Assembly (NCBI GenBank): GCA_905233915.1 | Contig: CAJOFM010000006.1 | Coordinates: forward strand, 16,873 to 80,872 | Source: an uncultured Muribaculaceae bacterium | GTDB lineage: Bacteria > Bacteroidota > Bacteroidia > Bacteroidales > Muribaculaceae | Reading direction: 5' to 3' | DNA: 64,000 nt | In this document: in pieces, positions 7,496 to 18,177 of the stretch | How positions within the stretch are numbered: the first letter of the stretch is position 1 | Layout of the letters: the number at the start of each line of letters is the position of its first letter | Notes under the pieces: model-generated | The model's database searches: none | The model's input: only the letters and a program-made list of their open reading frames with translations | Told to the model about the DNA's origin: nothing | Position numbers and translations under genes: made by a program

Positions 7496-10400
7496 ATGCG
7501 ACATTTTAAACTATTCACCAGGGAGAAGTTCAAGCTATTGCTCTTGATCTTCTGCCTCGCTGTATCGGTACCGCAGCTGCGGGCCGATGTTGTGGTAGCG
7601 GGCAACAACACGACGCTATTTGGCGGCAGTTGGACCACTGCCACTAACTCATCCAACAAGATGACGCAGCACAGTGGCACAAACTACTACTATCTGACCA
7701 AGACCAATGCCAACCTGACTGGAAACTTAGAGTTCAAGGTCGTTGACAATGGCAACTGGTACGGCACCAGCAGTGGCGACAATGTGACCTGCAACGCTAC
7801 TGGCACCCACACCATCACTTTCCTCTATAACTCCAGCAACCATGAAGTTGACCGCATTGGCACCTTCAGCACGGATGTTATTGTGACGGGTAGTGATGCG
7901 CAAGCACTGGGTAGTTCATGGGCTAACTCTAATCTGAGCAATGCCATGTCGACAAGTGATGGCCTCACCTTCACGTTGACCCGTACCGCGCAATACACCA
8001 GCGCAACCTCCATGCAGTTCAAAGTCCATTCGGTCACTACCGACCGATGGTACGGCACCAGCAGTGGCGACAATGTGTACTACAGTATTCCTGGCGCCGG
8101 CACCTATGACGTCACCTACACCTTCAATGTCATTTCCAGGGAAGTGAGCGCCACCGTAACCCCCACATCGGTTACGCCTCCCACTCCCGATTATTACATC
8201 ATTGGTGACAACACCGACTTGTGGCCTAACGGCTGGAACACTTCCAACATTCCCGCCAGCCAACAGATGACCGAGAGCAATGGGGTTTACACCTGGAGTG
8301 TGAGCAATGTCCACCTGGACGCCGGTAGCATCGGTTTCAAGGTCTATGACAGCAATGGTGTTTACCATCCCAGTGGCTCAGGCACCAACATCAATATCAA
8401 TGTCAGCCAATCGGGCACCTATGATCTGGTCATCACCTATGACCCCAACAGTGCTGACGACCGGGCCACCGTTGTTCTCACACCCATCTCCCTTGACCCT
8501 GTCATCCCCCATTATTATGTCACGGGTGACAACGGGTTAGGCCTTGGCGGTTTCACCTGTGTGCCCACACTGGAACTGACCGATGCCGACGGCGACGGGA
8601 TTTTCACCTACACGACCACCGCAACAGCCGACGGAACATACAGCTTTGTGTTTGCCAACGGCAAGGGAGCCAATTCCAGCGACTGGAGCAACTTCAATGA
8701 CAATTATCGCATTGGTCCGACCAATGGCAACACACAAATTGCCATCAATGCCCCCTTCCAACAAACGCAATTGTCCGGTGGTGACCATGGCGCCTACCAG
8801 ATCACTGTAGCGGCAGGTCCTGTGACATTCTACATCAACCACAGCGACATGACCTTCAGGATCGAGGCCACCGAACTCACCATCCCCGTCAATTATTACG
8901 TGAAGGGCGACAATACCGACATCTTCCCCAACGGCTGGAACGACGGAGCAAGCACTGCCATGACCGACAATGGGGACGGCACCTACATCTGGACTTCGGG
9001 GCAGTTCCGCCTCGAGATGGGCACCAGCTATGCGTACAAGGTTTGGGGTGATGACAACTCTTGGCATCCCAATGGTGACAACGCCACCTTCAGTTCCAAT
9101 GTTCCCGGCACCTACACGGTAACCATCACCTACGACAACAACAATGAGACGGTAAATGCCGTGCTGAATCCCATCCAGACCGACCCGACCTACGACTACG
9201 ATATCTACGTGCGCTACACTGGCGAAGAGCCCGTCGAGAACGTCTTCATTTACGCATGGGACGCTGGTGGCGACTTGTCGGATGCGTGGAGCGGCAGCAC
9301 AGGCGGCACCTCGCTGTCGAGCCTCACCACTCAGGAGATCAACGGCTACACCTACTACAAGGTGAGCTATACCTCCTATGCAACAAGCATCGGCGTTATC
9401 TTCAACGAGAACGGTTCTGGCGACACAAAGACCGCCGACCTGACCGCCAACCCTGGCAACAGCTACTTCACCTATGGCGGCGGCAGCGATGTTGTCGGTC
9501 CGTCGTCCCAAGCCGACGTGCCTGACTACTTCGTTGTGGGCCAGGACACCAGCCTCTTCCCCAACGGCTGGAACACCGGCAGCGAGACGCTGATGACCGA
9601 TAACAACGGCACCTATACCTTGACCATGACCAACGTTCAGCTGAACGCCAATCAAAACTATGAGTACAAGGTGCGCGGCACTGACGGTTCCTGGTATCCC
9701 GACGGCGACAATGCCTCGTTCAGCGTGGACGCCAGGGGCACCTACAACGTGGTGTTTACCTTTGACGGCACTAATGTGAATGCAGTAGCAACGCTGGTAC
9801 AAGCCGATCCGACCTACGACTACGACATCTACGTGCGCTACACTGGCAACGAGAATGTGAGCAACGTGTTCGTGTATGCCTGGGACAACGAGGGAACACT
9901 CTCTGACGCCTGGGACGGCAGCACGGGCGGCACCGCACTGTCGAGCCTGACTTCACAGGAAATTAACGGTCACACCTACTACCATGTGACCTACACGAGC
10001 TATGACTCGTCCATCAGCCTTATCTTCAACGAGAACGGCTCGTCATCGACACAAACAGCCGACTTGACCGCAGAGCCTGGTGACAGCTACTTCACCTATG
10101 GCGGCGGCAGCACCGTCGACGGTCCCAATGCCGAGGCCGACGAAGCCATTACCTCGATGTATCTTATCGGCTACGCAGGCACACAGCAATGGGCTGCCAA
10201 CGCCGGTATCGAGATGGAATGGGATGAGGCGAACGGTTATTACAAGCTGACCAATGTCGTGTTGACCGCTGGCAGCCAGTTTGCCTTCGCAACTCAGCTG
10301 GGCAGCAACAATGATGACTGGGAGACGCTCAACAACCATCGTTTGAGCTCCAACGGAGCCAACAACTGGTTGATTACCGATGACATGTTCGACACTTGGC

Positions 10401-13174
10401 TAAATTATCGCGATTACACCGACGAAAACCACAACTGGTATGTCAATCATGCCGGATCCTATGACATCTTTGTCAACCCTGCCACCCGCATGGTGATGGT
10501 TTCGGCACCGCACGAGGAGATGTACATTTCCTATGGCGTCAACTGGACCTATCAGGACAACAGCATGCAGATGAGCACGGTAGACGGTAATATTTACCAG
10601 GCCACCATCACGCTCAACAACGGCGACTACTTCCTGTTCTCGACTAACCTGACCGATGAGACCGCATGGGGAGCCGAGACCAACGGCTACGAGATTACCG
10701 ACATGAGAATCGGCTATGCCCAGAAGATGGTTCAGGGCTCTGCCAACAACTACCACTTCACTGGCACCTCGGGCAAGTATATTGTTGTGGTCAACAAGGA
10801 GAAGAAGACCGTTACCCTGCGCAAGACCACCGATGCCACGGTGACCAAGGTCTATCTGCAGAAGAGCCCCAACGTGGTTCTTGACCCTGCCGGTGGCACC
10901 TATAACAACGTGCCGGTAGAAGGCAAGCGCGGCGGCATCTATGCCTGGAACAAGCTAAACCTGGAAGCCCAGAACGGCCAGACCTACACCTGGGCAATGG
11001 ATAAAGGTCCCACCAACTACACCTACGCTGGCGAGGTCGGTAACGACTATGGTGGCGACAACTATCTGAAGGACTTGAACGACACCATCACAGCCGATGG
11101 CAAGCAGTGGTATGCCTGGAGCATCCGCAACTCCATCTGCGAGTTCTACTTCATCCGCAACAACAAGGATGACCACAAGTCGCAGAATGTGATGCGCCGC
11201 GCCGGTGAGGTGTGGCTCGTCTGGACCGACGAGGATGCCACCAGCAACCGTCAGGACGACGCTGTGCAATGCGACAGCCTGCAGGAAGTGACACGCGACT
11301 ACTATGACGTGAGTGCCGGGTCGGTTGGCGACTGCGCCACCATGCTCGAGGGTCACTATTATGTGTATTACACCAACACCACCGGTTGGGATTCAGTTTA
11401 CTGCTACGCTTGGAGTGAGAATCCTCTGGTTGAATTCAATGGCACTTATCCCGGCAGCAAGTGTACCTTTGTCGGCTATGACGAGCACGGTTACGAGGTT
11501 TGGTGCTATGACTTCGGCCTGATTGACCAACACGGCGATAATGCGCCCGAACATGTCATCTTTGACAACGGCATGAACACCGACGAGACCCGTCAGCAGA
11601 CCGGCGACATGGTCTATGACAATGGCGCATGCTACGACTATCTGGGAATGATTTACCTGGGCAACTCGCTGAATGCCATCATCAACAGCGGCGTTGTCAA
11701 CGGTCCCAAATACACCGTCGAGGATGACCTGATTGGTGTTTACTACGACGAGAATGCCATCACGCTCATCAAGGCCTTTGACGAGAGTGGAACCGAGGTT
11801 GATTACTACGTCCGTGGTGCCCTCTATGCCAAGGACAACGAGAACTACAGCGCCAAGTCCAAGATGGCAGGCGGAAGCACCGACTACGTCTATGACATCT
11901 GTGCCCACCCCAAGACGACACAGTACCCCGGCGGCTCTCAAATCCAGCTCAAGCGCACTTACTACGATCAGAGTAACTGGGTAAAGATTGTGCTCTCGCC
12001 CAACTTTGACAACACCAATGCCAAGAGTAACGGTGATGTGACCATCGACGCCGACCAGTTTGACACGATGAACTATGAGCAGGCAACAGCTGTCGAGGGG
12101 GGTTACCTAAGCCGCTACGTCGGTAAGATCATCCCCGGCCACTCCATGTCGGGTAATCTAGTCAACAACGTCAATCCCCAGATGCACATCACCAACATCG
12201 CCAATCCCGTTGCGGCCAACCAGCAGTACGAGAAGAACGTGTATGTCACGACCCACTTCAACGACTCGGTAGTATTCAGCTACGCGCATCAGGACTGGAA
12301 GCCCGGCAACTATCAGGGTGTGTATCGGACCGTTCCCTATCTGGGCACCGACGACCAGGGCAACACCATCATCGACCACACCGAGGTGGACGAGTCTGTC
12401 CTCTACAAGATGTACTATGTGGCACCCAAGCCCCAGGAGGTAGCTTACATCACTTGGGCAGTGTTTGACCACCCCAATCCCAATAACAACATCGGCACTC
12501 CCAGCTGCGTGCAGGAGCCCGATGAACCCGGTGCCTTCTATGCACCCATGAATTGGGATAGGACCGGCCAGTTGTGGGATGGCACCAACCCCAATGATCC
12601 CAATGCTCCTTGGGGCACCACCTATGGCCCGTTCAGTAACGGTTACATGCAATACGGCGCATTCCAGGTCAACTGGTCACTCTTTGAGGACATGGAAATT
12701 CCCGTGAGCAACACTAACCGTGAGCAGCTCCCCTGGTATCAGGTCTTCAAGCCTGGTCAGGCCTATAAGATTCTTGCCATCATCCGCTACGCCCATGGTG
12801 ACAAGCCCGAGGATGTCGAGTACACGCCAGGCGTTTATTCGGGCAACGAATACAATGAGGGTGCAGGCAGCCACGTGGCTAACGCTCCGCGCCGCAGCAA
12901 CACCCGCTGGGCCGACATCAAGCCTGTGGAGTATGATGACCTGGATCAGAGCAAGTTCATCATCTTCCCCCTGAGGGGAAGCAGTGAGGACTCCAATGGC
13001 AACGACATTGGAAACGTGACCGTTGTCAAGGAGGTCAGCACCGCTCGCACCGTCGTCAGTGAGCGCTACTACAACCTGATGGGTGTCGAGAGCGACAAGC
13101 CGTTCAGCGGCATCAACATTGTCGTGACCACCTACAGCGACGGCAGCCGCACGAGCAAGAAAATCCTGCGCTAA
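7496..13174 (+). CDS. Very large secreted protein (1892 aa) with about 12 starch-binding-like modules (X25/SusE-F-like, CBM26-like) and T9SS-like CTD
   Basis: N-terminal hydrophobic signal; repeated Y(Y/F)(V/I).GD...(F/W)PNGW modules; YVYYTNTTGWDSVYCYAW and VFIYAWD...VIFNENG CBM26-like modules; CTD VVSERYYNLMGVESDKPFSGINIVVTTYSDG...KILR. Confidence 0.85.
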   Translation: MRHFKLFTREKFKLLLLIFCLAVSVPQLRADVVVAGNNTTLFGGSWTTATNSSNKMTQHSGTNYYYLTKTNANLTGNLEFKVVDNGNWYGTSSGDNVTCNATGTHTITFLYNSSNHEVDRIGTFSTDVIVTGSDAQALGSSWANSNLSNAMSTSDGLTFTLTRTAQYTSATSMQFKVHSVTTDRWYGTSSGDNVYYSIPGAGTYDVTYTFNVISREVSATVTPTSVTPPTPDYYIIGDNTDLWPNGWNTSNIPASQQMTESNGVYTWSVSNVHLDAGSIGFKVYDSNGVYHPSGSGTNININVSQSGTYDLVITYDPNSADDRATVVLTPISLDPVIPHYYVTGDNGLGLGGFTCVPTLELTDADGDGIFTYTTTATADGTYSFVFANGKGANSSDWSNFNDNYRIGPTNGNTQIAINAPFQQTQLSGGDHGAYQITVAAGPVTFYINHSDMTFRIEATELTIPVNYYVKGDNTDIFPNGWNDGASTAMTDNGDGTYIWTSGQFRLEMGTSYAYKVWGDDNSWHPNGDNATFSSNVPGTYTVTITYDNNNETVNAVLNPIQTDPTYDYDIYVRYTGEEPVENVFIYAWDAGGDLSDAWSGSTGGTSLSSLTTQEINGYTYYKVSYTSYATSIGVIFNENGSGDTKTADLTANPGNSYFTYGGGSDVVGPSSQADVPDYFVVGQDTSLFPNGWNTGSETLMTDNNGTYTLTMTNVQLNANQNYEYKVRGTDGSWYPDGDNASFSVDARGTYNVVFTFDGTNVNAVATLVQADPTYDYDIYVRYTGNENVSNVFVYAWDNEGTLSDAWDGSTGGTALSSLTSQEINGHTYYHVTYTSYDSSISLIFNENGSSSTQTADLTAEPGDSYFTYGGGSTVDGPNAEADEAITSMYLIGYAGTQQWAANAGIEMEWDEANGYYKLTNVVLTAGSQFAFATQLGSNNDDWETLNNHRLSSNGANNWLITDDMFDTWLNYRDYTDENHNWYVNHAGSYDIFVNPATRMVMVSAPHEEMYISYGVNWTYQDNSMQMSTVDGNIYQATITLNNGDYFLFSTNLTDETAWGAETNGYEITDMRIGYAQKMVQGSANNYHFTGTSGKYIVVVNKEKKTVTLRKTTDATVTKVYLQKSPNVVLDPAGGTYNNVPVEGKRGGIYAWNKLNLEAQNGQTYTWAMDKGPTNYTYAGEVGNDYGGDNYLKDLNDTITADGKQWYAWSIRNSICEFYFIRNNKDDHKSQNVMRRAGEVWLVWTDEDATSNRQDDAVQCDSLQEVTRDYYDVSAGSVGDCATMLEGHYYVYYTNTTGWDSVYCYAWSENPLVEFNGTYPGSKCTFVGYDEHGYEVWCYDFGLIDQHGDNAPEHVIFDNGMNTDETRQQTGDMVYDNGACYDYLGMIYLGNSLNAIINSGVVNGPKYTVEDDLIGVYYDENAITLIKAFDESGTEVDYYVRGALYAKDNENYSAKSKMAGGSTDYVYDICAHPKTTQYPGGSQIQLKRTYYDQSNWVKIVLSPNFDNTNAKSNGDVTIDADQFDTMNYEQATAVEGGYLSRYVGKIIPGHSMSGNLVNNVNPQMHITNIANPVAANQQYEKNVYVTTHFNDSVVFSYAHQDWKPGNYQGVYRTVPYLGTDDQGNTIIDHTEVDESVLYKMYYVAPKPQEVAYITWAVFDHPNPNNNIGTPSCVQEPDEPGAFYAPMNWDRTGQLWDGTNPNDPNAPWGTTYGPFSNGYMQYGAFQVNWSLFEDMEIPVSNTNREQLPWYQVFKPGQAYKILAIIRYAHGDKPEDVEYTPGVYSGNEYNEGAGSHVANAPRRSNTRWADIKPVEYDDLDQSKFIIFPLRGSSEDSNGNDIGNVTVVKEVSTARTVVSERYYNLMGVESDKPFSGINIVVTTYSDGSRTSKKILR
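8891..10150 (+). repeat. Intragenic tandem duplication of about 630 nt (X25-like + CBM26-like pair)
   Basis: DPTYDYDIYVRYTG at 9182 and 9806, with near-identical DNA through GGT.LSSLT.QEING.TYY and YFTYGGGS. Confidence 0.85.
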
Positions 13175-13296: not shown

Positions 13297-13304
13297 TAAT
13301 TTTG
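13297..13304 (+). promoter_or_regulatory. -7 promoter element
   Basis: TAATTTTG 30 nt upstream of the DUF1599 ATG. Confidence 0.55.
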
Positions 13305-13334
13305 TAGGTTTAATTGACAACTCAACCGACTACT

Positions 13335-13883
13335 ATGCAGAATACCAGCAAACAATATGACGAGGTGATTGCCCAGTGCCGCAAACTGTTCATCAACAAG
13401 ATGAAGGATTACGGACCATCGTGGCGCATCCTGCGTCCCCAATCGGTGACCGACCAGATCTTCATTAAGGCCAAGCGCATCCGCACCCTGGAACTCAATG
13501 GCGAGACCAAGGTGGGAGAAGACATCTGGCCCGAGTTCATCGGCATCATCAACTACGGCATTATCGGGCTCATCCAGTTGCGACTGGGCTACAGCGACGT
13601 GGTGGATATCACCAGTGAGCAGGCCCTGGAGCTCTATGACGAGCTCATCCAGGCCACCAAGGACCTGATGATTGCCAAAAACACCGACTATGGCGAGGCA
13701 TGGCGCGACATGCGCATCTCAAGCTATACCGACCTGATCCTGACCAAGATACAGCGCACCAAGGAAATCGAGAACCACAACGGCAAGACCCTGGTGAGCG
13801 AGGGTATCGACGCCAACTATCAGGACATGATCAACTACAGCGTGTTTGCCCTCATCAAGCACAACGAGGGAACTGATAGTTAA
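13335..13883 (+). CDS. DUF1599 (nucleotide-modification-associated domain 1) protein
   Basis: Two repeats of K..DYG..W...R..S.TD.I..K..R; typical Bacteroidetes length. Confidence 0.85.
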   Translation: MQNTSKQYDEVIAQCRKLFINKMKDYGPSWRILRPQSVTDQIFIKAKRIRTLELNGETKVGEDIWPEFIGIINYGIIGLIQLRLGYSDVVDITSEQALELYDELIQATKDLMIAKNTDYGEAWRDMRISSYTDLILTKIQRTKEIENHNGKTLVSEGIDANYQDMINYSVFALIKHNEGTDS

Positions 13884-13885
13884 TA

Positions 13886-13913
13886 GTTTAGAGTTTAGGG
13901 TTTAGAGTTTAGA
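13886..13913 (+). repeat. Heptamer tandem array GTTTAG(A/G) x4
   Basis: gtttaga gtttagg gtttaga gtttaga, read directly. Confidence 0.8.
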
Positions 13914-13930
13914 GAATTCTTGATGCGAGA

Positions 13931-15259
13931 ATGATGAAAATCAAGACCATAGTCAATGCCGTCAAGGGTGAGAAGTGGTGCAAAGTGCTCACCACGCTCA
14001 TGCGGCTCGTCGTGGGCGGCGTGTTCATCTTCTCGGGGTTTACCAAAGCGGTAGACCCGTGGGGTACCTGTTACAAGATTACCGACTACCTCAATGCCAT
14101 GGGATTGGAGAGCTGGACCAGCACGGCGTTAATCATTGCCGTGGCACTGGCAGCCCTAGAGTTTGTGTTAGGCATGTGCCTTGCACTAGGCACCTACCGC
14201 CGCAGCTCTCCCATCATCGCCCTGCTGCTTTTACTGGTGATGACACCGCTGACGTTGTGGCTCGCCGTTACCAACGCCGTACCCGACTGCGGCTGCTTTG
14301 GCGACGCACTGCACCTGAGCAACTGGGCCACCTTCGGCAAAAACCTGCTGCTCTTGCTGGGCGGCATCTACCTGCTGTTGTTTAACACGTCGCTGCGAGG
14401 CGTCTATGGGCCTGCAGTCCATTGGGTTGTGTCGGCTTTGTCATTCGCATTGGTCATGAGTGTGGCCTACTATGGCTACTTCTATCAACCCCTCATCGAC
14501 TACCGCCCCTATCCCGTAGGGACACAACTCTTGTCCACGACCATTGAAGAGAGCGACGAGGAAAGCGAGGACGATTTCATCTTCATCTACAGCAAGGATG
14601 GCGTGGAGCATGAGTTCACCATCGACAGCCTGCCCGATGAGGAAGACGGCTGGGAATATGTCACCCGCTACCATGCTAACCGCCCCCACGGCAAGGTCAT
14701 CCTGCAGAACGGCAATGCACAGAACGCCATTGCCATCATGGACGAGGGTGGCAATGACGTCACCGCAGATGTGCTGGGCAGCAACCGCCGCATGGTGTTG
14801 CTCCTGTTCCCTGACCTGGAACAGGTGGGAGTCGTTAACTCGTTTGCATTGAATGAACTCACCGACGCGGCCCTAGTCGCCGATGCCGAAGTCGTTGGTC
14901 TCACGCCCGCCACTAGCGAGCAAATCGAGCAGTGGCAAGATGTGTCGATGGCCAGCTATCCCATCTACAACATGGATGACAGCGAGCTCAAGATGGTGGC
15001 CCGCGGCAATCCTGCAGTGGTCTATCTCGAGGACGGAACCATTAAGTGGAAGCGCACCCTCTCATCGCTGGAAGATGTGGAACAACCAGTGGAGCTGAGC
15101 GACATGAACAATGACTATGACGCTGACAAGATCTTGACGACTCTCATGCTCACTTTCCTTGCCGCCATGGTGGCCTTGCTGATGCTCAACCGAAGCCACC
15201 TGGCCGTCAAGTACATCGTGGGCAGGAAGAAACATAATACCGATAATCCCAACAACTAA
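13931..15259 (+). CDS. BT_3928-family DoxX/MauE-like membrane protein
   Basis: RLVVGGVFIFSGFTKAVDPWG, VPDCGCFGD, PLIDYRPY; N-terminal TM helices, a periplasmic thioredoxin-like part and a C-terminal TM. Confidence 0.85.
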   Translation: MMKIKTIVNAVKGEKWCKVLTTLMRLVVGGVFIFSGFTKAVDPWGTCYKITDYLNAMGLESWTSTALIIAVALAALEFVLGMCLALGTYRRSSPIIALLLLLVMTPLTLWLAVTNAVPDCGCFGDALHLSNWATFGKNLLLLLGGIYLLLFNTSLRGVYGPAVHWVVSALSFALVMSVAYYGYFYQPLIDYRPYPVGTQLLSTTIEESDEESEDDFIFIYSKDGVEHEFTIDSLPDEEDGWEYVTRYHANRPHGKVILQNGNAQNAIAIMDEGGNDVTADVLGSNRRMVLLLFPDLEQVGVVNSFALNELTDAALVADAEVVGLTPATSEQIEQWQDVSMASYPIYNMDDSELKMVARGNPAVVYLEDGTIKWKRTLSSLEDVEQPVELSDMNNDYDADKILTTLMLTFLAAMVALLMLNRSHLAVKYIVGRKKHNTDNPNN

Positions 15260-15296
15260 AAACCAGGGACTAGAAACTAAGGACTAAAAACTAGAA
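15255..15296 (+). repeat. Heptamer tandem array ACTA(A/G)(A/G)(A/G)-like x6
   Basis: actaaaa accaggg actagaa actaagg actaaaa actagaa, directly before the kinase-AAA ATG. Confidence 0.75.
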
Positions 15297-15298
15297 AC

Positions 15299-17140
15299 AT
15301 GATACTCAAAGAAGGACAACCGATTGGCCAATGGCACGTGGTTTACCTCATCAAGGAAAACCCTTACGCCGAGAGTTACCGCGTCGAGGACGAGAGCGGC
15401 AACCCTTACTTCATGAAGATTTACCGCCTCAAGAACACGCCCGACAAGCTGATTCGTAACGGCGAGGTGAACGAGATCGCAATTTGCCGGCAGTTGAGCC
15501 ACAAGAACATTGTGAGCATTATCGACGACGGCGTCTATGACGACAAGGCGGGCGAATGCCAATACATGGTGTGCACCTACTTCAGCGGAGAGTTGTTAAG
15601 CGAGATGCTGCAGCGCAAAAAGAAAAAGAAACTCGACAAGAAAACCGCTGTCAAGATTTTCATCGAGATGCTCCAAGGCCTGCAATACCTGCATGAGCGT
15701 CCCGGTGTGCTGCTGCACAACGACATCAACCCCACCAACGTCATGTTGAGCAAGAAAACAGGCGGCACGGCTGAACTCATCGACTTGGGTCACGTGTCAT
15801 CACGCTTCATGGGCAACGCCCTGTTCGACACCGCCGACCTCGACCCCCGCTATGCCAGCGGGCAGTCCTTCCTGGGCAAGTATGACGAGCGGAACGACAT
15901 CTTTGCCGCTACGGGCGTGTTCTACACCATGCTCACGGGCAAAGCCCCCTGGGGTGTGGAATTCACGCCTGGCATGAGCCGCAAGGAGAAAATCCGCCTC
16001 GTGCAGAAGGCCCGAAGCGAGCAGGGCGAAATCGACGTCGATGACATCAAGGACGAGAAGCTGCAGGCCATCGTCGCTTGTGGCTTGTCTTTGAGCTACA
16101 CCGAGCGCTACGAGAGCGTTGACGAGATACTCAACGACCTGCTTGTTGACGATGACAGCGAGATGGCGCAGGAAATACGCGACCGACTCAATGCCCGTGA
16201 CCAGGAGGCCATTAAGGGCGAATTTGAGGATTCCTCAAACCGCGGCAATGACAACCGCAGCCAGGCTGCCAGCGAAACCAGTGCCGATGTCGAGATCAAG
16301 AAAGGCGGTGGTAACGGCTTTGCCGACATCGCCGGCATGGATGAACTCAAGGAGATGCTGCGCAAGCGCGTCATCCTCATCCTCCAAAACAAGGAGCTCG
16401 CCGACAAATATAAACTCACGCCGCCCAACGGCATGCTGCTGTATGGTCCTCCGGGATGCGGTAAGAGCTTCTTTGCCGAGAAGTTTGCCGAGGAGACTGG
16501 CTTCAACTTTATCCTCGTCAAGGCGAGCGACCTGGGCTCCATCTACATCCACGGCTCGCAAGGCAAAATCGCCGACCTGTTCAAGAAGGCCGAGGAGAAT
16601 GCCCCTACAGTGCTGTGCTTCGACGAATTTGACGCCTTTGTGCCTAGCCGTTCGGGCGACAACGTGGGTAGCAACCAGGCAGGAGAGGTCAATGAGTTCC
16701 TCTCGCAACTCAACAACTGCTCCAAGCGCGGCATCTTTGTCATCGCCACCAGCAACCGCCCCGACAAGGTGGACCCCGCTGTGCTACGCACTGGCCGCAT
16801 CGACAAGCAAGTGTATGTGCCCATGCCCGACTTGACCGCACGCAAACTCATGTTCGAGCTGTACCTCAAGGACCGCCCCTGCGATGAGATTGACTGCGAG
16901 GCCCTGGCAGTGAAGGCCGACGGCTATGTCGCCAGCGATATCGCCTATGTTGTCAACGAGGCAGCTACCATCGCCGCCTTCAACCGCGAGAATATCACCC
17001 AAGAACTGCTCATCAAGACCATCGAGGGCATCAAGCCGTCGATTAACAAGGAACTGCTCAAGGAATATGAGGAGATGAAAGACAAGATGGAAGGCGTTGA
17101 GCGCAGCAACTCCCTGCCTCGCGTAGGCTTCAATGTTTAA
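15299..17140 (+). CDS. Ser/Thr kinase-like domain fused to a classic-clade (Cdc48/FtsH-like) AAA+ ATPase
   Basis: Kinase part: LSHKNIV, HNDINPTNVML, LIDLG, DIFA.G. AAA part: GMLLYGPPGCGKS, LCFDEFD, ATSNRPDKVDPAVLRTGRID. Confidence 0.88.
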   Translation: MILKEGQPIGQWHVVYLIKENPYAESYRVEDESGNPYFMKIYRLKNTPDKLIRNGEVNEIAICRQLSHKNIVSIIDDGVYDDKAGECQYMVCTYFSGELLSEMLQRKKKKKLDKKTAVKIFIEMLQGLQYLHERPGVLLHNDINPTNVMLSKKTGGTAELIDLGHVSSRFMGNALFDTADLDPRYASGQSFLGKYDERNDIFAATGVFYTMLTGKAPWGVEFTPGMSRKEKIRLVQKARSEQGEIDVDDIKDEKLQAIVACGLSLSYTERYESVDEILNDLLVDDDSEMAQEIRDRLNARDQEAIKGEFEDSSNRGNDNRSQAASETSADVEIKKGGGNGFADIAGMDELKEMLRKRVILILQNKELADKYKLTPPNGMLLYGPPGCGKSFFAEKFAEETGFNFILVKASDLGSIYIHGSQGKIADLFKKAEENAPTVLCFDEFDAFVPSRSGDNVGSNQAGEVNEFLSQLNNCSKRGIFVIATSNRPDKVDPAVLRTGRIDKQVYVPMPDLTARKLMFELYLKDRPCDEIDCEALAVKADGYVASDIAYVVNEAATIAAFNRENITQELLIKTIEGIKPSINKELLKEYEEMKDKMEGVERSNSLPRVGFNV

Positions 17141-17165
17141 ACAATGGACTAAAAACTACAATACA

Positions 17166-17582
17166 ATGGACTTAAACAAACTGATGATGGATTACCTGGC
17201 CGAGGAAGGGTTCCGTCCCCACGAGACCCCCTTTGGCATCGCTTTCAAGAAAGAAGGCATTAATTTCTTGTATTTCAAGGATGAGGACGACGAGCAGTAC
17301 TTCAGGCTCATGATGCCCGCCATCTTTGTCGTCACCGAGGACAACGAGGATATGATCCTGCACGCCATGAACGATGTGAACAGCAACATCAAGGTGGTGA
17401 AACTCTACACCATGGACATGGAAGACGAGCAAGGCAATAAAGAGACCAGCGTTTGGGTTGCCTTTGAAATCCTTGCCGACACCACACCCGAACTGGGCGA
17501 CATCGTGCCACGTGCCATTACCTTGCTGCAAGGCGCACGCATTGCCTTCCTCGCCCGTCTTGAAGAAGTAGCTGACCATTAA
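17166..17582 (+). CDS. YbjN/T3SS-chaperone-like protein
   Basis: Acidic 138-aa protein with DYLAEEGFRP...YFRLMMPAIF...NDVNSNIKVVKLY...WVAFE, a YbjN-like pattern. Confidence 0.65.
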   Translation: MDLNKLMMDYLAEEGFRPHETPFGIAFKKEGINFLYFKDEDDEQYFRLMMPAIFVVTEDNEDMILHAMNDVNSNIKVVKLYTMDMEDEQGNKETSVWVAFEILADTTPELGDIVPRAITLLQGARIAFLARLEEVADH

Positions 17583-17604
17583 TTGATATAATCCAGACAG
17601 AACA

Positions 17605-18114
17605 ATGAAAAAGTACATATGCATGGCTGCACTATTCATCGTGGCAGCCCTCACCCTCACCTCATGCGGCGATGATGAGCCCAAAGAGACCGTAACGGCA
17701 ACCGCAACCTATAATATGAGTTTCTCGCAGGACCTGCTCAATGCCTGCAATGTGTTCATCACTTACAAGGCCGAGAATGGCCGCAACGTGATGGAGGCAG
17801 TTACATCCACCTGGTGGAGCAAGTCGGTCACAAGCGACAAGTTCCCCGCAGAGTTTGGGGTGATGTACAAGTTCAGCACCAAATCCGACGCCGAACTTGT
17901 ACAGGAGAAGTATGACCTCACCTGTGAGCTGAATTTCTCCTGCAAGACCAGCAAGGGAGCCAGCTACACCAATTTGGTGACCATCATCAACAGTAAGGGT
18001 GTAGCCAGGGACAAGGTAGTGAGCACCCTGGACAGACTGAGTGGTAAGTCCACGGGATTCAGGGTTACAAAGGACGGCATCGTCTCACCGGCCAACAGCC
18101 TGGATTACGATTAA
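17605..18114 (+). CDS. Hypothetical lipoprotein
   Basis: Lipobox LTLTSC-GDDEP; beta-rich 169 aa. Confidence 0.75.
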   Translation: MKKYICMAALFIVAALTLTSCGDDEPKETVTATATYNMSFSQDLLNACNVFITYKAENGRNVMEAVTSTWWSKSVTSDKFPAEFGVMYKFSTKSDAELVQEKYDLTCELNFSCKTSKGASYTNLVTIINSKGVARDKVVSTLDRLSGKSTGFRVTKDGIVSPANSLDYD

Positions 18115-18134: not shown

Positions 18135-18177
18135 AAAACAGCGAAGCGCCAGAACACGTCCGGCGCTTCGTTGTTTT
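18135..18177. terminator. Bidirectional terminator
   Basis: aaaacagcgaagcgcc...ggcgcttcgttgtttt between convergent genes. Confidence 0.8.

What the first reader, a model, noticed from the sequence alone, without database searches (positions are those of the whole stretch)
15299..18114. Kinase-like/AAA+ fusion, YbjN-like protein and lipoprotein as a compact three-gene module
Seen: the kinase domain lacks the Gly-rich loop (KENPYA) and has HND-INPTN, DLG and no APE. It is joined by an acidic linker to an intact single-ring Cdc48/FtsH-type AAA ending in RVGFNV. A YbjN-like gene and a lipoprotein follow, closed by a terminator. Established: classic AAA proteins unfold substrates via adaptors, and kinase/ATPase modules are frequent in conflict systems. 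Inference: an undescribed signalling, quality-control or anti-phage unit in which a (pseudo)kinase gates an unfoldase and YbjN acts as adaptor.
Basis: partly seen in the sequence, partly recalled or inferred. Interest (0 to 1): 0.65.

Follow-up and report, generated by a model that had tools for sequence, protein, structure and literature searches.

The report
Kinase-headed unfoldase with YbjN-type partner
A gut or rumen Muribaculaceae bacterium carries a conserved, unstudied gene pair, a protein kinase fused to a Cdc48-like unfolding motor plus a small chaperone-like protein, and in sister lineages the same pair sits in one operon with its own ClpP protease gene, which points to a new kinase-linked protein-degradation machine.

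Summary
They are a 613-aa Hanks-type kinase fused to a single classical AAA+ ring ending in RVGFNV, a YbjN-fold protein, a lipoprotein and a terminator hairpin.

The conserved unit has two genes, not three. The lipoprotein follows the pair in only 1 of 9 orthologous loci.

The pair is fixed at this locus in 22 of 22 sampled species of one subclade of the genus. It is under strong purifying selection (dN/dS 0.04-0.24). Elsewhere in Bacteroidota the family is rare (1.5-3% of genomes), and several copies lie beside restriction, CRISPR, BREX or TIR genes.

Three results bear on mechanism:
- A [V/I]G[F/Y] motif on a disordered C-terminal tail is kept in 37 of 41 family members. Only 4 of 76 other classical AAA proteins have it. 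This genome's own ClpX loop reads VGY at the position I take to be its IGF loop.
- In a sister clade (45-49% identical), at least 20 metagenome contigs carry YbjN-like, kinase-AAA and ClpP-paralogue genes 29-104 bp apart, in several genomic contexts.
- The kinase catalytic residues are conserved throughout this clade.

My best reading is a ClpP-activating unfoldase with a kinase head and a YbjN-type adaptor. I found no description of it in the literature or in the curated family models. The mechanism is inferred, not shown.

The parts
13297..13304 (+). Bacteroidetes-type -7 promoter motif (TAATTTTG) just upstream of the DUF1599 gene. It is the only + strand match between 13297 and 18114, so the five genes from 13314 to 18114 may form one transcript.
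   Evidence: 40 matches in the window against 21 expected by chance. This is a consensus match only.
13931..15259 (+). BT_3928-family (MauE/DoxX-like) membrane protein. It is the upstream neighbour, 39 bp before the kinase-AAA gene. It is context for this lineage only and is not part of the mobile module.
   Evidence: NF045576, 360 bits against a cut-off of 250. It lies next to the pair in all 22 subclade genomes but is absent from xenologous loci. In seven genomes without the pair whose locus I read, it is followed directly by a tpiA-like ORF in six.
15299..16147 (+). Kinase-like head (aa 1-283). It is a Hanks-type fold with a glycine-less first loop. K40, E59, H140-N141-D142, N147 and D162 are retained, and the APE glutamate is lost.
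   Evidence: (Pkinase, 83.1 bits), alignments, and the model (pLDDT 85-95).
16148..16303 (+). Acidic, low-complexity, disordered linker (aa 284-335).
   Evidence: residues 306-329 have pLDDT below 50. Length and sequence vary between relatives.
16304..17092 (+). Single classical-clade AAA+ module with its lid (aa 336-598). It has Walker A GPPGCGKS, Walker B DEFD, pore loop SIYIHGSQ, sensor-1 and arginine fingers.
   Evidence: CDC48, FtsH and PAN models all far below their cut-offs; best solved relatives are the Cdc48/p97/VAT D2 ring.
17093..17140 (+). Disordered C-terminal tail ending in RVGFNV, plus the stop codon. It carries a [V/I]G[F/Y] motif and is the proposed ClpP-docking element.
   Evidence: residues 601-613 have pLDDT below 50. 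The motif is in 37 of 41 family members against 4 of 76 other classical AAA proteins. The genome's own ClpX loop reads VGY.
17166..17582 (+). YbjN / type III secretion chaperone-fold partner (138 aa; an alternative start at 17133 gives 149 aa). It is the proposed adaptor or client chaperone.
   Evidence: It is linked to the kinase-AAA or to a kinase-less AAA.
17605..18114 (+). Lipoprotein (169 aa, LTSC lipobox) with no family assignment. It is a lineage-specific passenger and not part of the conserved module.
   Evidence: no family. A homologue follows the pair in only 1 of 9 orthologous loci.
18142..18170 (.). A 12-pair GC-rich hairpin between the lipoprotein gene and the convergent cation-efflux gene. 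It looks like a bidirectional terminator.

Best explanation
The conserved unit is a two-gene module.

**Gene 1** encodes a single-ring unfoldase of the classical clade (Cdc48/FtsH/PAN-like). A Hanks-type kinase domain takes the place of the usual substrate-recognition N-domain. The protein ends in a flexible tail carrying a [V/I]G[F/Y] tripeptide.

**Gene 2** encodes a chaperone of the YbjN / type III secretion fold.

**Proposed mechanism.**
- The AAA+ domains form a hexamer that threads client proteins through the SIYIHG pore loops. This step follows from the intact motifs and from established knowledge of classical AAA proteins.
- The tails dock into the hydrophobic sites of ClpP, as the IGF loops of ClpX and ClpA do. 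Unfolded clients are then degraded. This step is inferred from the tail motif and from the ClpP operon link in a sister clade.
- The kinase head binds ATP and selects, marks or gates clients, or gates the motor, by phosphorylation. This step is inferred from conserved catalytic residues and from phosphatase neighbours of some relatives.
- The YbjN-type protein holds a client or acts as an adaptor at the ring. Type III secretion chaperones hand effectors to their ATPase in a similar way, as do SspB, MecA and ClpS for Clp proteases. This step is inferred from the fold and the strict linkage.

**Biological role.** In this lineage the pair is a stably inherited accessory proteolysis or regulatory module. 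It may be co-transcribed with the DUF1599 and BT_3928 genes. Its clients are unknown.
For: **Domains and motifs.**

**Linkage of the AAA and the YbjN-like gene.**
- 5 of 6 diverged family loci.
- 9 of 9 orthologous loci and 5 of 5 xenologues at 55-61% identity, one of them split by an inserted ORF.
- Kinase-less AAA proteins of 325-373 aa, with one or two YbjN-like genes, in about 8 Bacteroidaceae loci.

**Tail.**
- [V/I/L]G[F/Y] lies in the last 9 residues of 37 of 41 members down to 29% identity, although the neighbouring residues vary.
- Only 4 of 76 other classical AAA relatives have it.
- Many archaeal Cdc48 proteins in the same set end in Tyr-X tails that look like the proteasome-docking HbYX motif. 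This serves as a positive control for the idea that the tail carries a docking motif.
- The tail is disordered in the model.
- ClpX of this genome has VGY at the position I take to be its IGF loop, and some orthologues of the fusion end in IGY.
- IGF loops dock in the ClpP H sites (PMC9035409).

**ClpP link.**
- A Prevotella MAG has a 48%-identical fusion followed 14 bp later by a second ClpP gene (PF00574, E 1.6e-53). This is in addition to its housekeeping ClpP.
- In a metagenome scan with that ClpP, 20 of 50 loci with enough upstream DNA have the fusion directly upstream, with gaps of 29-104 bp.
- The usual order is YbjN-like, fusion, ClpP, seen in at least 5 different flanking contexts.
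- These fusions carry a different extreme C-terminal tail (..VxGL..VNPW..IVTW). That fits co-variation of the tail with a dedicated ClpP.
- The window's genome has one ClpP.

**Kinase.** K, E, HND..N and DxG are invariant in all members at least 45% identical. LMW-PTP and Metallophos phosphatase genes lie next to relatives.

**Selection.** The pair is fixed in 22 of 22 subclade genomes. dN/dS is 0.09-0.24 for the fusion and 0.04-0.18 for the partner, similar to the flanking housekeeping genes.
Against: - No physical interaction was tested. Structure prediction of complexes was not available.
- In the window's own clade there is no dedicated ClpP gene. The docking idea there rests on a tripeptide and on analogy.
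- Known ClpP partners all belong to the Clp/Hsp100 group and use an internal loop, not a C-terminal tail.
- In some Prevotella-like contigs the same ClpP paralogue sits at the same site without the pair. That paralogue is therefore not strictly dedicated to the pair.
- The ClpP-linked clade does not use the VGF tail, so the two tail types may have different partners.
- The glycine-less ATP loop and the lost APE motif may mean weak or no phosphotransfer. More distant branches have lost the catalytic residues, which suggests the head can work without catalysis.
- The tail could bind the YbjN-like partner rather than ClpP.
Confidence: 0.5

Rival explanations
1. The pair is an anti-phage or other conflict system. 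The kinase head or the YbjN-like protein senses an invader protein. The unfoldase, with or without ClpP, then destroys the invader or a host target, causing abortive infection.
For: - The family is sparse and patchy. It is in 10 of 301 sampled Bacteroidales genomes and 7 of 401 Bacteroidota genomes, and some genomes carry two copies.
- Several non-orthologous copies lie beside defence genes:
  - an MvaI/BcnI nuclease, a methylase and a TIR protein (L013);
  - Cas1 and a repeat stretch that looks like a CRISPR array (L039);
  - type I HsdM/HsdS (L130);
  - GmrSD (L132);
  - BREX-1 on a Haliscomenobacter plasmid;
  - an S_4TM effector domain (L050);
  - a NACHT/Avs2-like protein (L049).
- Partner genes vary, as they do in conflict systems.
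- IetAS is a known defence pair of an AAA ATPase and a protease, and the AAA half resembles IetA at domain level.
Against: - This copy is fixed in 22 of 22 species of its subclade at one locus and is absent from that locus in the rest of the genus.
- It evolves under constraint as strong as its housekeeping neighbours.
- It sits between a BT_3928-family gene and a cation-efflux gene, not in a defence island.
- No PADLOC model fits the partners, and the NCBIfam anti-phage IteA and MAD6 models are far below their cut-offs.
- No full-length copy was found in 50,697 phage records.
- The defence-neighbour count is anecdotal and was not tested against a background.
Confidence: 0.25
2. The pair is a ClpP-independent remodelling machine, such as a segregase or disaggregase like Cdc48, Msp1 or katanin. 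The kinase-headed ring extracts or unfolds clients for refolding or relocation. The VGF tail binds the YbjN-like chaperone or another partner instead of ClpP.
For: - The closest solved relatives are Cdc48/p97/VAT D2 rings, and many classical AAA proteins work without a protease.
- Chaperones of this fold bind extended peptides in hydrophobic grooves, so a hydrophobic tail is a plausible ligand (fold match).
- The Hsp70-linked relatives suggest a chaperone network.
- The window clade has no ClpP gene nearby.
Against: - The tail motif is also kept in Hsp70-linked relatives that have no YbjN-like neighbour.
- The operon link to ClpP in the sister clade is direct.
- The tail changes exactly where a ClpP paralogue is adjacent.
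Confidence: 0.18
3. The pair is toxin-antitoxin-like. The kinase-AAA protein is a growth-arresting toxin that is held in check by the small YbjN-like protein.
For: There are two tightly spaced genes, one large enzyme and one small acidic partner, and the family appears mobile.
Against: - The order, with the large gene first, and the 25-bp gap are not diagnostic.
- Relatives carry two to four YbjN-like paralogues, or none.
- The pair is fixed and vertically inherited.
- No known toxin family has this architecture.
Confidence: 0.04
4. The lipoprotein would be a functional third component, for example an envelope sensor that feeds the kinase.
For: The lipoprotein gene is on the same strand, 22 bp after the YbjN-like gene and before the terminator hairpin. 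A 30%-identical lipoprotein follows the pair in one orthologous locus (L031).
Against: It is absent from 8 of 9 orthologous loci and from all xenologous loci. In 7 of 9 orthologous loci the gene after the YbjN-like gene is convergent.
Confidence: 0.03

Closest known systems
ClpXP, ClpAP and ClpCP (Clp/Hsp100 ATPases docking on ClpP through IGF/IGL/VGF loops, with the adaptors SspB, ClpS and MecA)
   Same: - An AAA+ unfoldase is predicted to feed ClpP.
- A hydrophobic-Gly-aromatic tripeptide sits on a flexible element.
- A small dedicated partner protein is present.
- The sister clade has an operon link to a ClpP gene.
   Different: - The motor belongs to the classical clade (Cdc48/FtsH/PAN-like), not the Clp/Hsp100 group.
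- The tripeptide is at the C-terminus, not on an internal loop.
- The N-domain is a protein kinase.
- The partner has a YbjN fold, unlike any known Clp adaptor.
McsB-McsA-ClpC-ClpP with the YwlE phosphatase (phospho-arginine tagging for degradation in Gram-positive bacteria)
   Same: - A kinase is coupled to an unfoldase-protease.
- LMW-PTP genes, the family to which YwlE belongs (my own knowledge), lie next to two relatives.
- The McsB/YwlE/ClpC system is described in bioRxiv 10.1101/2022.09.15.508104 (listed).
   Different: - Here the kinase is a Hanks-type Ser/Thr/Tyr fold fused in cis to the motor. McsB is a separate guanidino-kinase-like enzyme.
- No phospho-binding site has been identified.
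- The taxon is Bacteroidota.
Archaeal Cdc48/VAT and PAN, and actinobacterial Mpa/ARC, with the 20S proteasome (C-terminal HbYX docking tails)
   Same: A classical-clade AAA ring uses a short C-terminal tail motif to dock on a self-compartmentalised protease. Archaeal relatives in my own sample end in Tyr-X tails that look like HbYX.
   Different: - There is one ring, not two.
- There is no double-psi barrel N-domain.
- The tail is [V/I]GF at a variable distance from the end.
- No 20S proteasome is expected in this phylum (my own knowledge), so ClpP is the candidate partner.
IetAS (anti-phage pair of the AAA ATPase IetA and the subtilisin-like protease IetS)
   Same: A classical-type AAA ATPase is paired with a protease. 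The AAA half resembles IetA at domain level (PADLOC E 1.7e-31).
   Different: - NCBIfam IteA scores 97.8 bits against a cut-off of 510.
- No IetS-like protease is present.
- IetA has no kinase head and no YbjN partner.
Type III secretion class I chaperones with the SctN/InvC ATPase; E. coli YbjN and Erwinia AmyR
   Same: The partner has the same fold. The mechanistic idea is that a chaperone presents a client to an ATPase, which strips and unfolds it.
   Different: - There is no secretion system here.
- The ATPase is an AAA+ protein, not an F1/RecA-like ATPase.
- To my knowledge, YbjN and AmyR have no known ATPase partner.

Membership tests
Classical AAA clade (Pfam PF00004, with second region of homology) | Walker A and B, sensor-1, arginine fingers in the SRH, a pore-1 loop, and a score above the Pfam cut-off | tested here: met
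   (117 bits against 21.2). GPPGCGKS, DEFD, ATSN and LRTGRID were read. The pore loop is SIYIHG, with one extra residue compared with the usual aromatic-hydrophobic-Gly.
CDC48 family (TIGR01243) | Two tandem AAA rings and a double-psi barrel N-domain; score of at least 802.65 bits | tested here: not met
   179.7 bits. Only profile positions 452-728 (the D2 ring) are matched. There is one ring, and the N-domain is a kinase.
FtsH (TIGR01241) | Membrane anchor, AAA module and M41 zinc protease; score of at least 600 bits | tested here: not met
   158.3 bits, with the AAA part only. There is no M41 domain or transmembrane segment.
Hanks-type protein kinase (PF00069) | Pfam score above the cut-off and the catalytic set of beta3 Lys, alphaC Glu, HRD Asp, catalytic-loop Asn and DFG Asp | tested here: met
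   (83.1 bits against 31.7). K40, E59, D142, N147 and D162 are present and conserved in the clade.
Hanks-type protein kinase (PF00069) | Gly-rich GxGxxG loop and the APE motif | tested here: not met
   The loop is KENPYAESY and the APE position reads ASGQ. One distant relative (L138) still has GEGAFG, HRD and DFG, so the ancestor was canonical.
Hanks-type protein kinase (PF00069) | Phosphotransfer activity | not testable with these tools
   This needs a kinase assay.
YbjN family (PF10722) / TY-chaperone superfamily | Match to the Pfam model | tested here: inconclusive
   The window's copy gives no hit even at E up to 10. 34 of 68 homologues hit PF10722 and 24 of 68 hit PF22551.
YbjN family (PF10722) / TY-chaperone superfamily | The fold: a meander sheet flanked by helices | tested here: met
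   The model has pLDDT 97. The best PDB matches are YbjN 6vu7 and AmyR 5fr7 (probability 1.0, TM about 0.6), then SycT and VecA.
ClpP-partner ATPases (ClpX, ClpA, ClpC, ClpE) | Membership of the Clp/Hsp100 group | tested here: not met
   The best family and structure matches are classical-clade proteins. The ClpX model hits the real ClpX elsewhere in the genome.
ClpP-partner ATPases (ClpX, ClpA, ClpC, ClpE) | A [I/L/V]G[F/L/Y] tripeptide on a flexible element that docks in ClpP H sites | tested here: inconclusive
   The tripeptide is present and conserved on a disordered tail. Docking was not tested.
Anti-phage IetA/IteA (NF042959) | Score of at least 510 bits and an IetS protease neighbour | tested here: not met
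   97.8 bits. There is no subtilisin-like neighbour.
PD-T4-6 and MADS MAD6 defence kinases | Family-level match and architecture | tested here: not met
   The PADLOC hits cover the kinase domain only. NCBIfam MAD6 scores 63.2 bits against a cut-off of 460. As far as I know, neither family has an AAA module.

The most novel reading that the evidence does not exclude
The family is a fourth kind of ClpP activator. It would be a Cdc48/PAN-like single-ring AAA+ that docks on ClpP through a C-terminal tail, as proteasomal ATPases dock on the 20S core. A built-in Ser/Thr kinase would write or gate a phospho-degron, and a YbjN-fold protein would be a new class of protease adaptor. The Hsp70-TerB-linked and YbjN-linked branches would then be alternative input modules of one regulated-proteolysis platform. 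Some lineages would have recruited that platform for immunity.
Probability: 0.3. Interest if true: 0.85.

Novelty: new variant of a known kind. Interest (0 to 1): 0.62.

Why it matters
- All ClpP partners known to me are Clp/Hsp100 ATPases. A classical-clade AAA+ that feeds ClpP through a C-terminal tail would link the bacterial Clp system and the archaeal/eukaryotic proteasome-activator design.
- A kinase fused in cis to the motor would be a direct bacterial case of phosphorylation-coupled unfolding or degradation.
- It would also give the widespread but functionally obscure YbjN family a concrete role as partner of AAA+ machines.
- The family is common in Muribaculaceae and in Prevotella-like gut and rumen bacteria. 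The biology is therefore relevant to abundant gut commensals, and it is testable with a few recombinant proteins.

Tried and rejected
**Rejected readings.**
- Three-gene module with the lipoprotein: rejected by synteny.
- Universal housekeeping gene: rejected by the sparse distribution.
- Known defence system:
  - PADLOC gives only domain-level hits to IetA and PD-T4-6 and nothing for the partners.
  - The NCBIfam anti-phage models are far below their cut-offs.
- Member of CDC48, FtsH or PAN: all far below their cut-offs.

**Searches that led nowhere.**
- Fusion proteins joining the YbjN-like domain to an AAA domain: the longer hits in the representative search that I read carry other domains or repeats.
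- Phage origin: no full-length match in the phage collection. Only one plasmid copy was found, of the Hsp70-linked type.
- Literature: seven full-text searches and four papers read found no description of a kinase-AAA fusion, of a YbjN-AAA pairing or of the Hsp70-kinase-AAA-TerB operon.

**Technical limits.**
- The genome search scores only a few candidates per genome in the large samples, so the frequencies are lower bounds.
- I first took the first gene of the Hsp70-linked operon for a J-domain protein because of its NPYRLLGV start. It has no Pfam hit and I saw no HPD motif in its N-terminal stretch, and RefSeq calls a homologue a CFI-box-CTERM protein. I do not call it a J-domain protein.

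Full report
**What is in the window**

The stretch holds three + strand ORFs: 15299-17140 (613 aa), 17133-17582 and 17605-18114. The genome is a Muribaculaceae (Bacteroidales) assembly of 2.8 Mb (names).

The 613-aa protein reaches the Pfam cut-offs for Pkinase (residues 30-278) and AAA (379-508).
- The first kinase loop, LIKENPYAESYRV, has no glycine.
- The beta3 lysine and the alphaC glutamate are present.
- The catalytic loop reads HNDINPTN, the DFG position reads DLG, and the APE position reads ASGQ.

The AAA module has all working motifs, and its nearest solved relatives are the D2 rings of Cdc48/p97/VAT. It still fails every curated family cut-off (CDC48, FtsH, PAN, anti-phage IteA) by a wide margin. 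A structure model shows two folded domains, a disordered acidic linker (306-329) and a disordered tail (601-613) that carries RVGFNV.

The second ORF gives no Pfam hit by itself.
- Half of 68 diverse homologues hit YbjN or TY-Chap1.
- Its model (pLDDT 97) matches YbjN and AmyR best, then type III secretion chaperones.
- Homologues are called at 138 aa, so the start is probably 17166.

The third ORF is a lipoprotein without a family. A 12-pair hairpin follows it at 18142-18170.

**Which genes belong together**

Comparison with related loci settles this.
- In nine orthologous loci of the same genus the order is large surface protein (seen in 4 of the 9), DUF1599, BT_3928, kinase-AAA, YbjN-like. 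The lipoprotein has a homologue in only one of them (30% identity). In seven of the nine the next gene is convergent.
- Xenologues 55-61% identical lie in unrelated contexts but keep a YbjN-like gene nearby, in one case behind an inserted ORF.
- Copies 29-46% identical also keep it.
- In Bacteroidaceae, closely related AAA proteins without the kinase (325-373 aa, 43-48% identical in the AAA half) are followed by one or two YbjN-like genes.

The conserved core is therefore this AAA plus a YbjN-fold partner. The kinase head defines one large branch.

**Distribution and evolution**

The full-length fusion occurs in about 6 of 61 sampled Muribaculaceae genomes, 10 of 301 Bacteroidales and 7 of 401 Bacteroidota.

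Within the window's genus the picture is sharply bimodal.
- All 22 sampled species whose BT_3928 protein is 68-77% identical to the window's carry the orthologous fusion next to it.
- None of the 33 species with BT_3928 at 57% identity or less has it at that locus, although several hold xenologues elsewhere.
- In the seven genomes without the pair whose locus I read, DUF1599-BT_3928 is followed directly by a tpiA-like ORF in six.

dN/dS against the nine orthologues is 0.09-0.24 for the fusion and 0.04-0.18 for the partner. This is the same range as the two flanking genes, although dS is near saturation. This copy is therefore a stably inherited, constrained part of its lineage, while the family as a whole moves around.

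The only Bacteroidetes-type -7 motif on the + strand between 13297 and 18114 lies before DUF1599. A single five-gene transcript is possible.

**A second, wider branch**

Most distant relatives (32-40% identical) lie in a different conserved operon. Its genes are a roughly 500-aa protein, a coiled-coil membrane protein, an 830-850-aa Hsp70-like protein, the kinase-AAA and a TerB-like protein.
- A cultured example is on plasmid pHALHY02 of Haliscomenobacter hydrossis. RefSeq names the genes CFI-box-CTERM protein, septum formation initiator, Hsp70 family protein, AAA family ATPase and TerB family protein. The operon abuts a BREX-1 system.
- In this branch the catalytic aspartate is mostly glutamate (HNE).
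- One member still has a canonical GxGxxG, HRD and DFG. Two YbjN-linked members (L017, L018) have lost the lysine and both aspartates.
- The head was therefore a normal kinase originally, and it can persist without catalysis in some branches.

**The tail and ClpP**

Alignment of 41 family members shows that the one feature kept outside the folded domains is [V/I/L]G[F/Y] within the last nine residues (37 of 41). Its distance from the end varies from 0 to 6 residues, and it is set in otherwise variable sequence.

Among 76 other classical AAA relatives fetched in the same session only four have such a tail. One of those four is a 47%-identical member of this family from Terriglobales. Many archaeal Cdc48 proteins in that set end in Tyr-X tails that look like HbYX, the motif that docks on the 20S proteasome.

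The tripeptide is the kind that ClpX and ClpA use to dock in the hydrophobic sites of ClpP (PMC9035409). This genome has one ClpP next to ClpX, and at the position I take to be its IGF loop the ClpX reads VGY. Some orthologues of the fusion end in IGY.

The direct evidence comes from a sister clade.
- In a Prevotella MAG a 48%-identical fusion is followed after 14 bp by a second ClpP gene (PF00574, E 1.6e-53), in addition to that genome's housekeeping ClpP.
- I scanned metagenome contigs with that ClpP. Of 50 loci with at least 1.9 kb upstream, 20 have the fusion directly upstream, with gaps of 29-104 bp.
- The usual order is YbjN-like, fusion, ClpP (once fusion, ClpP, YbjN-like), in at least five different flanking contexts.
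- These fusions keep the same kinase signature as the window's. They end in a different, strictly terminal tail (..[I/V]VxGL..VVNPW..KIVTW).
- The ClpP paralogue differs from housekeeping ClpP at many positions but keeps the conserved motif stretches that hold the catalytic residues.

A tail that changes where a dedicated ClpP is present fits tail-ClpP docking, although this is an inference. One caveat: in some contigs the same paralogue sits at the same site without the pair.

**The kinase**

In every member at least 45% identical to the window's protein, K40, E59, H-N-D142, N147 and D162 are invariant. This includes the ClpP-linked clade. Conservation of all five catalytic residues argues for nucleotide binding and probably phosphotransfer, despite the glycine-less loop. 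HND in place of HRD makes it a non-RD kinase (my own knowledge of kinase classification).

Two relatives have an LMW-PTP gene next door, and one of them also has a Metallophos phosphatase gene. Phosphatase neighbours fit real phosphorylation. LMW-PTPs include the phospho-arginine phosphatase YwlE of the McsB-ClpC system (my own knowledge; the system is described in bioRxiv 10.1101/2022.09.15.508104, listed).

**Defence or physiology?**

Several non-orthologous copies lie beside defence genes that I verified with Pfam or record annotation:
- an MvaI/BcnI nuclease, a methylase and a TIR protein;
- Cas1;
- HsdM/HsdS;
- GmrSD;
- BREX-1;
- an S_4TM effector domain;
- a NACHT/Avs2-like protein.

This is suggestive for the family, especially for the Hsp70-TerB branch, but I did not test it against a background. 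The window's copy shows the opposite behaviour: it is fixed, syntenic, constrained and has housekeeping neighbours. I therefore rank a regulated-proteolysis role first for this copy and defence second.

**Known or new**

No curated model names the fusion or its partners. Public records call it 'AAA family ATPase' or 'transitional endoplasmic reticulum ATPase' and call the partner 'hypothetical protein'. Seven full-text searches found no description.

Earlier notes of this scan describe the same family in other genomes and reached similar readings. I treated them as leads and re-derived the ClpP link independently.

It works like a Clp-type or proteasome-activator-type unfoldase with an adaptor. 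It is a member only of the classical AAA clade, the Hanks kinase superfamily and the YbjN-fold superfamily. I rate it a new variant of a known kind.

**Shown and inferred**

*Shown:*
- the domain architecture and motifs;
- the YbjN fold of the partner;
- two-gene linkage across wide divergence;
- fixation and purifying selection in this lineage;
- tail-motif conservation and its rarity elsewhere;
- the operon link to ClpP in a sister clade.

*Inferred:*
- hexameric unfoldase activity;
- tail-ClpP docking in the window's clade;
- kinase activity and its role;
- the adaptor role of the partner;
- any role in defence.

Noticed in passing
L016, L041-L044, L048, L127-L139 and L154-L158; annotated example L175 (Haliscomenobacter hydrossis plasmid NC_015512.1, 8539-16064): A conserved five-gene operon occurs in roughly 1.5-3% of sampled Bacteroidota. 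Its genes are a roughly 500-aa protein (CFI-box-CTERM in RefSeq), a coiled-coil membrane protein, an 830-850-aa Hsp70-like protein, the kinase-AAA (mostly HNE in place of HRD) and a TerB-like protein. It lies next to BREX-1, type I restriction-modification or GmrSD genes in three loci. PADLOC has no models for its parts. It is a candidate undescribed conflict system.
   Followed up: partly
L165-L167, L170-L174 and L048:9762-11616: Kinase-less AAA proteins of 325-373 aa from the same family, ending in [A/V/T]IGF, are followed by one or two paralogous YbjN-like genes in many Bacteroidaceae. In one Muribaculaceae contig such a set sits directly after the Hsp70-linked operon.
   Followed up: partly
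L179-L190, L209-L219 and L255 (rumen and gut metagenome contigs): These contigs carry a three-gene operon of YbjN-like, kinase-AAA and ClpP paralogue. The fusion's tail there is ..VxGL, ..VNPW or ..IVTW instead of VGF.
   Followed up: yes
L225, L226, L240, L248, L253 and L254: ClpP genes 57-67% identical to the fusion-linked ClpP paralogue lie in contigs that look phage-like to me, judged by eye and not checked with any family library. They appear to carry vWA-like and DNA-methylase-like genes, and one has what look like DnaK/DnaJ homologues. The paralogue clade may have a phage connection.
   Followed up: no
L050:5447-10256: A kinase-AAA relative (31-33% identical) is flanked by an LMW-PTP phosphatase gene and a Metallophos phosphatase gene. 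A protein that joins an S_4TM (SMODS-associated) effector domain to LicD follows.
   Followed up: partly
L049:5950-12042: A 679-aa kinase-AAA relative without the VGF tail is followed by a 1348-aa protein with a weak NACHT/Avs2-like NTPase match.
   Followed up: no
L017:6178-7150 and L018:9009-10897: These are branches in which the kinase head has lost its lysine and both aspartates. The fusion is followed by two to four YbjN-like paralogues and preceded by two shared genes with no Pfam hit.
   Followed up: no
window 13314-15259; L141-L147: In the seven other species of the genus whose locus I read, DUF1599-BT_3928 is followed directly by a tpiA-like ORF in six. In the window's subclade the kinase-AAA pair occupies that place instead.
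   Followed up: partly
G000:C1:291138-292912 (L140, L176): This genome's ClpX has VGY at the position I take to be its IGF loop. clpP and clpX are adjacent, after what looks like trigger factor.
   Followed up: yes
L046:356-8822: In one xenologous locus a 1950-aa ORF on the opposite strand separates the kinase-AAA from its YbjN-like gene. It looks like an insertion into the pair.
   Followed up: no
L039:5127-8247 and 10282-11588: Repeated short ORF translations on both sides of the kinase-AAA pair look like a CRISPR array and other GC-rich repeats. They lie next to a cas1 gene.
   Followed up: no
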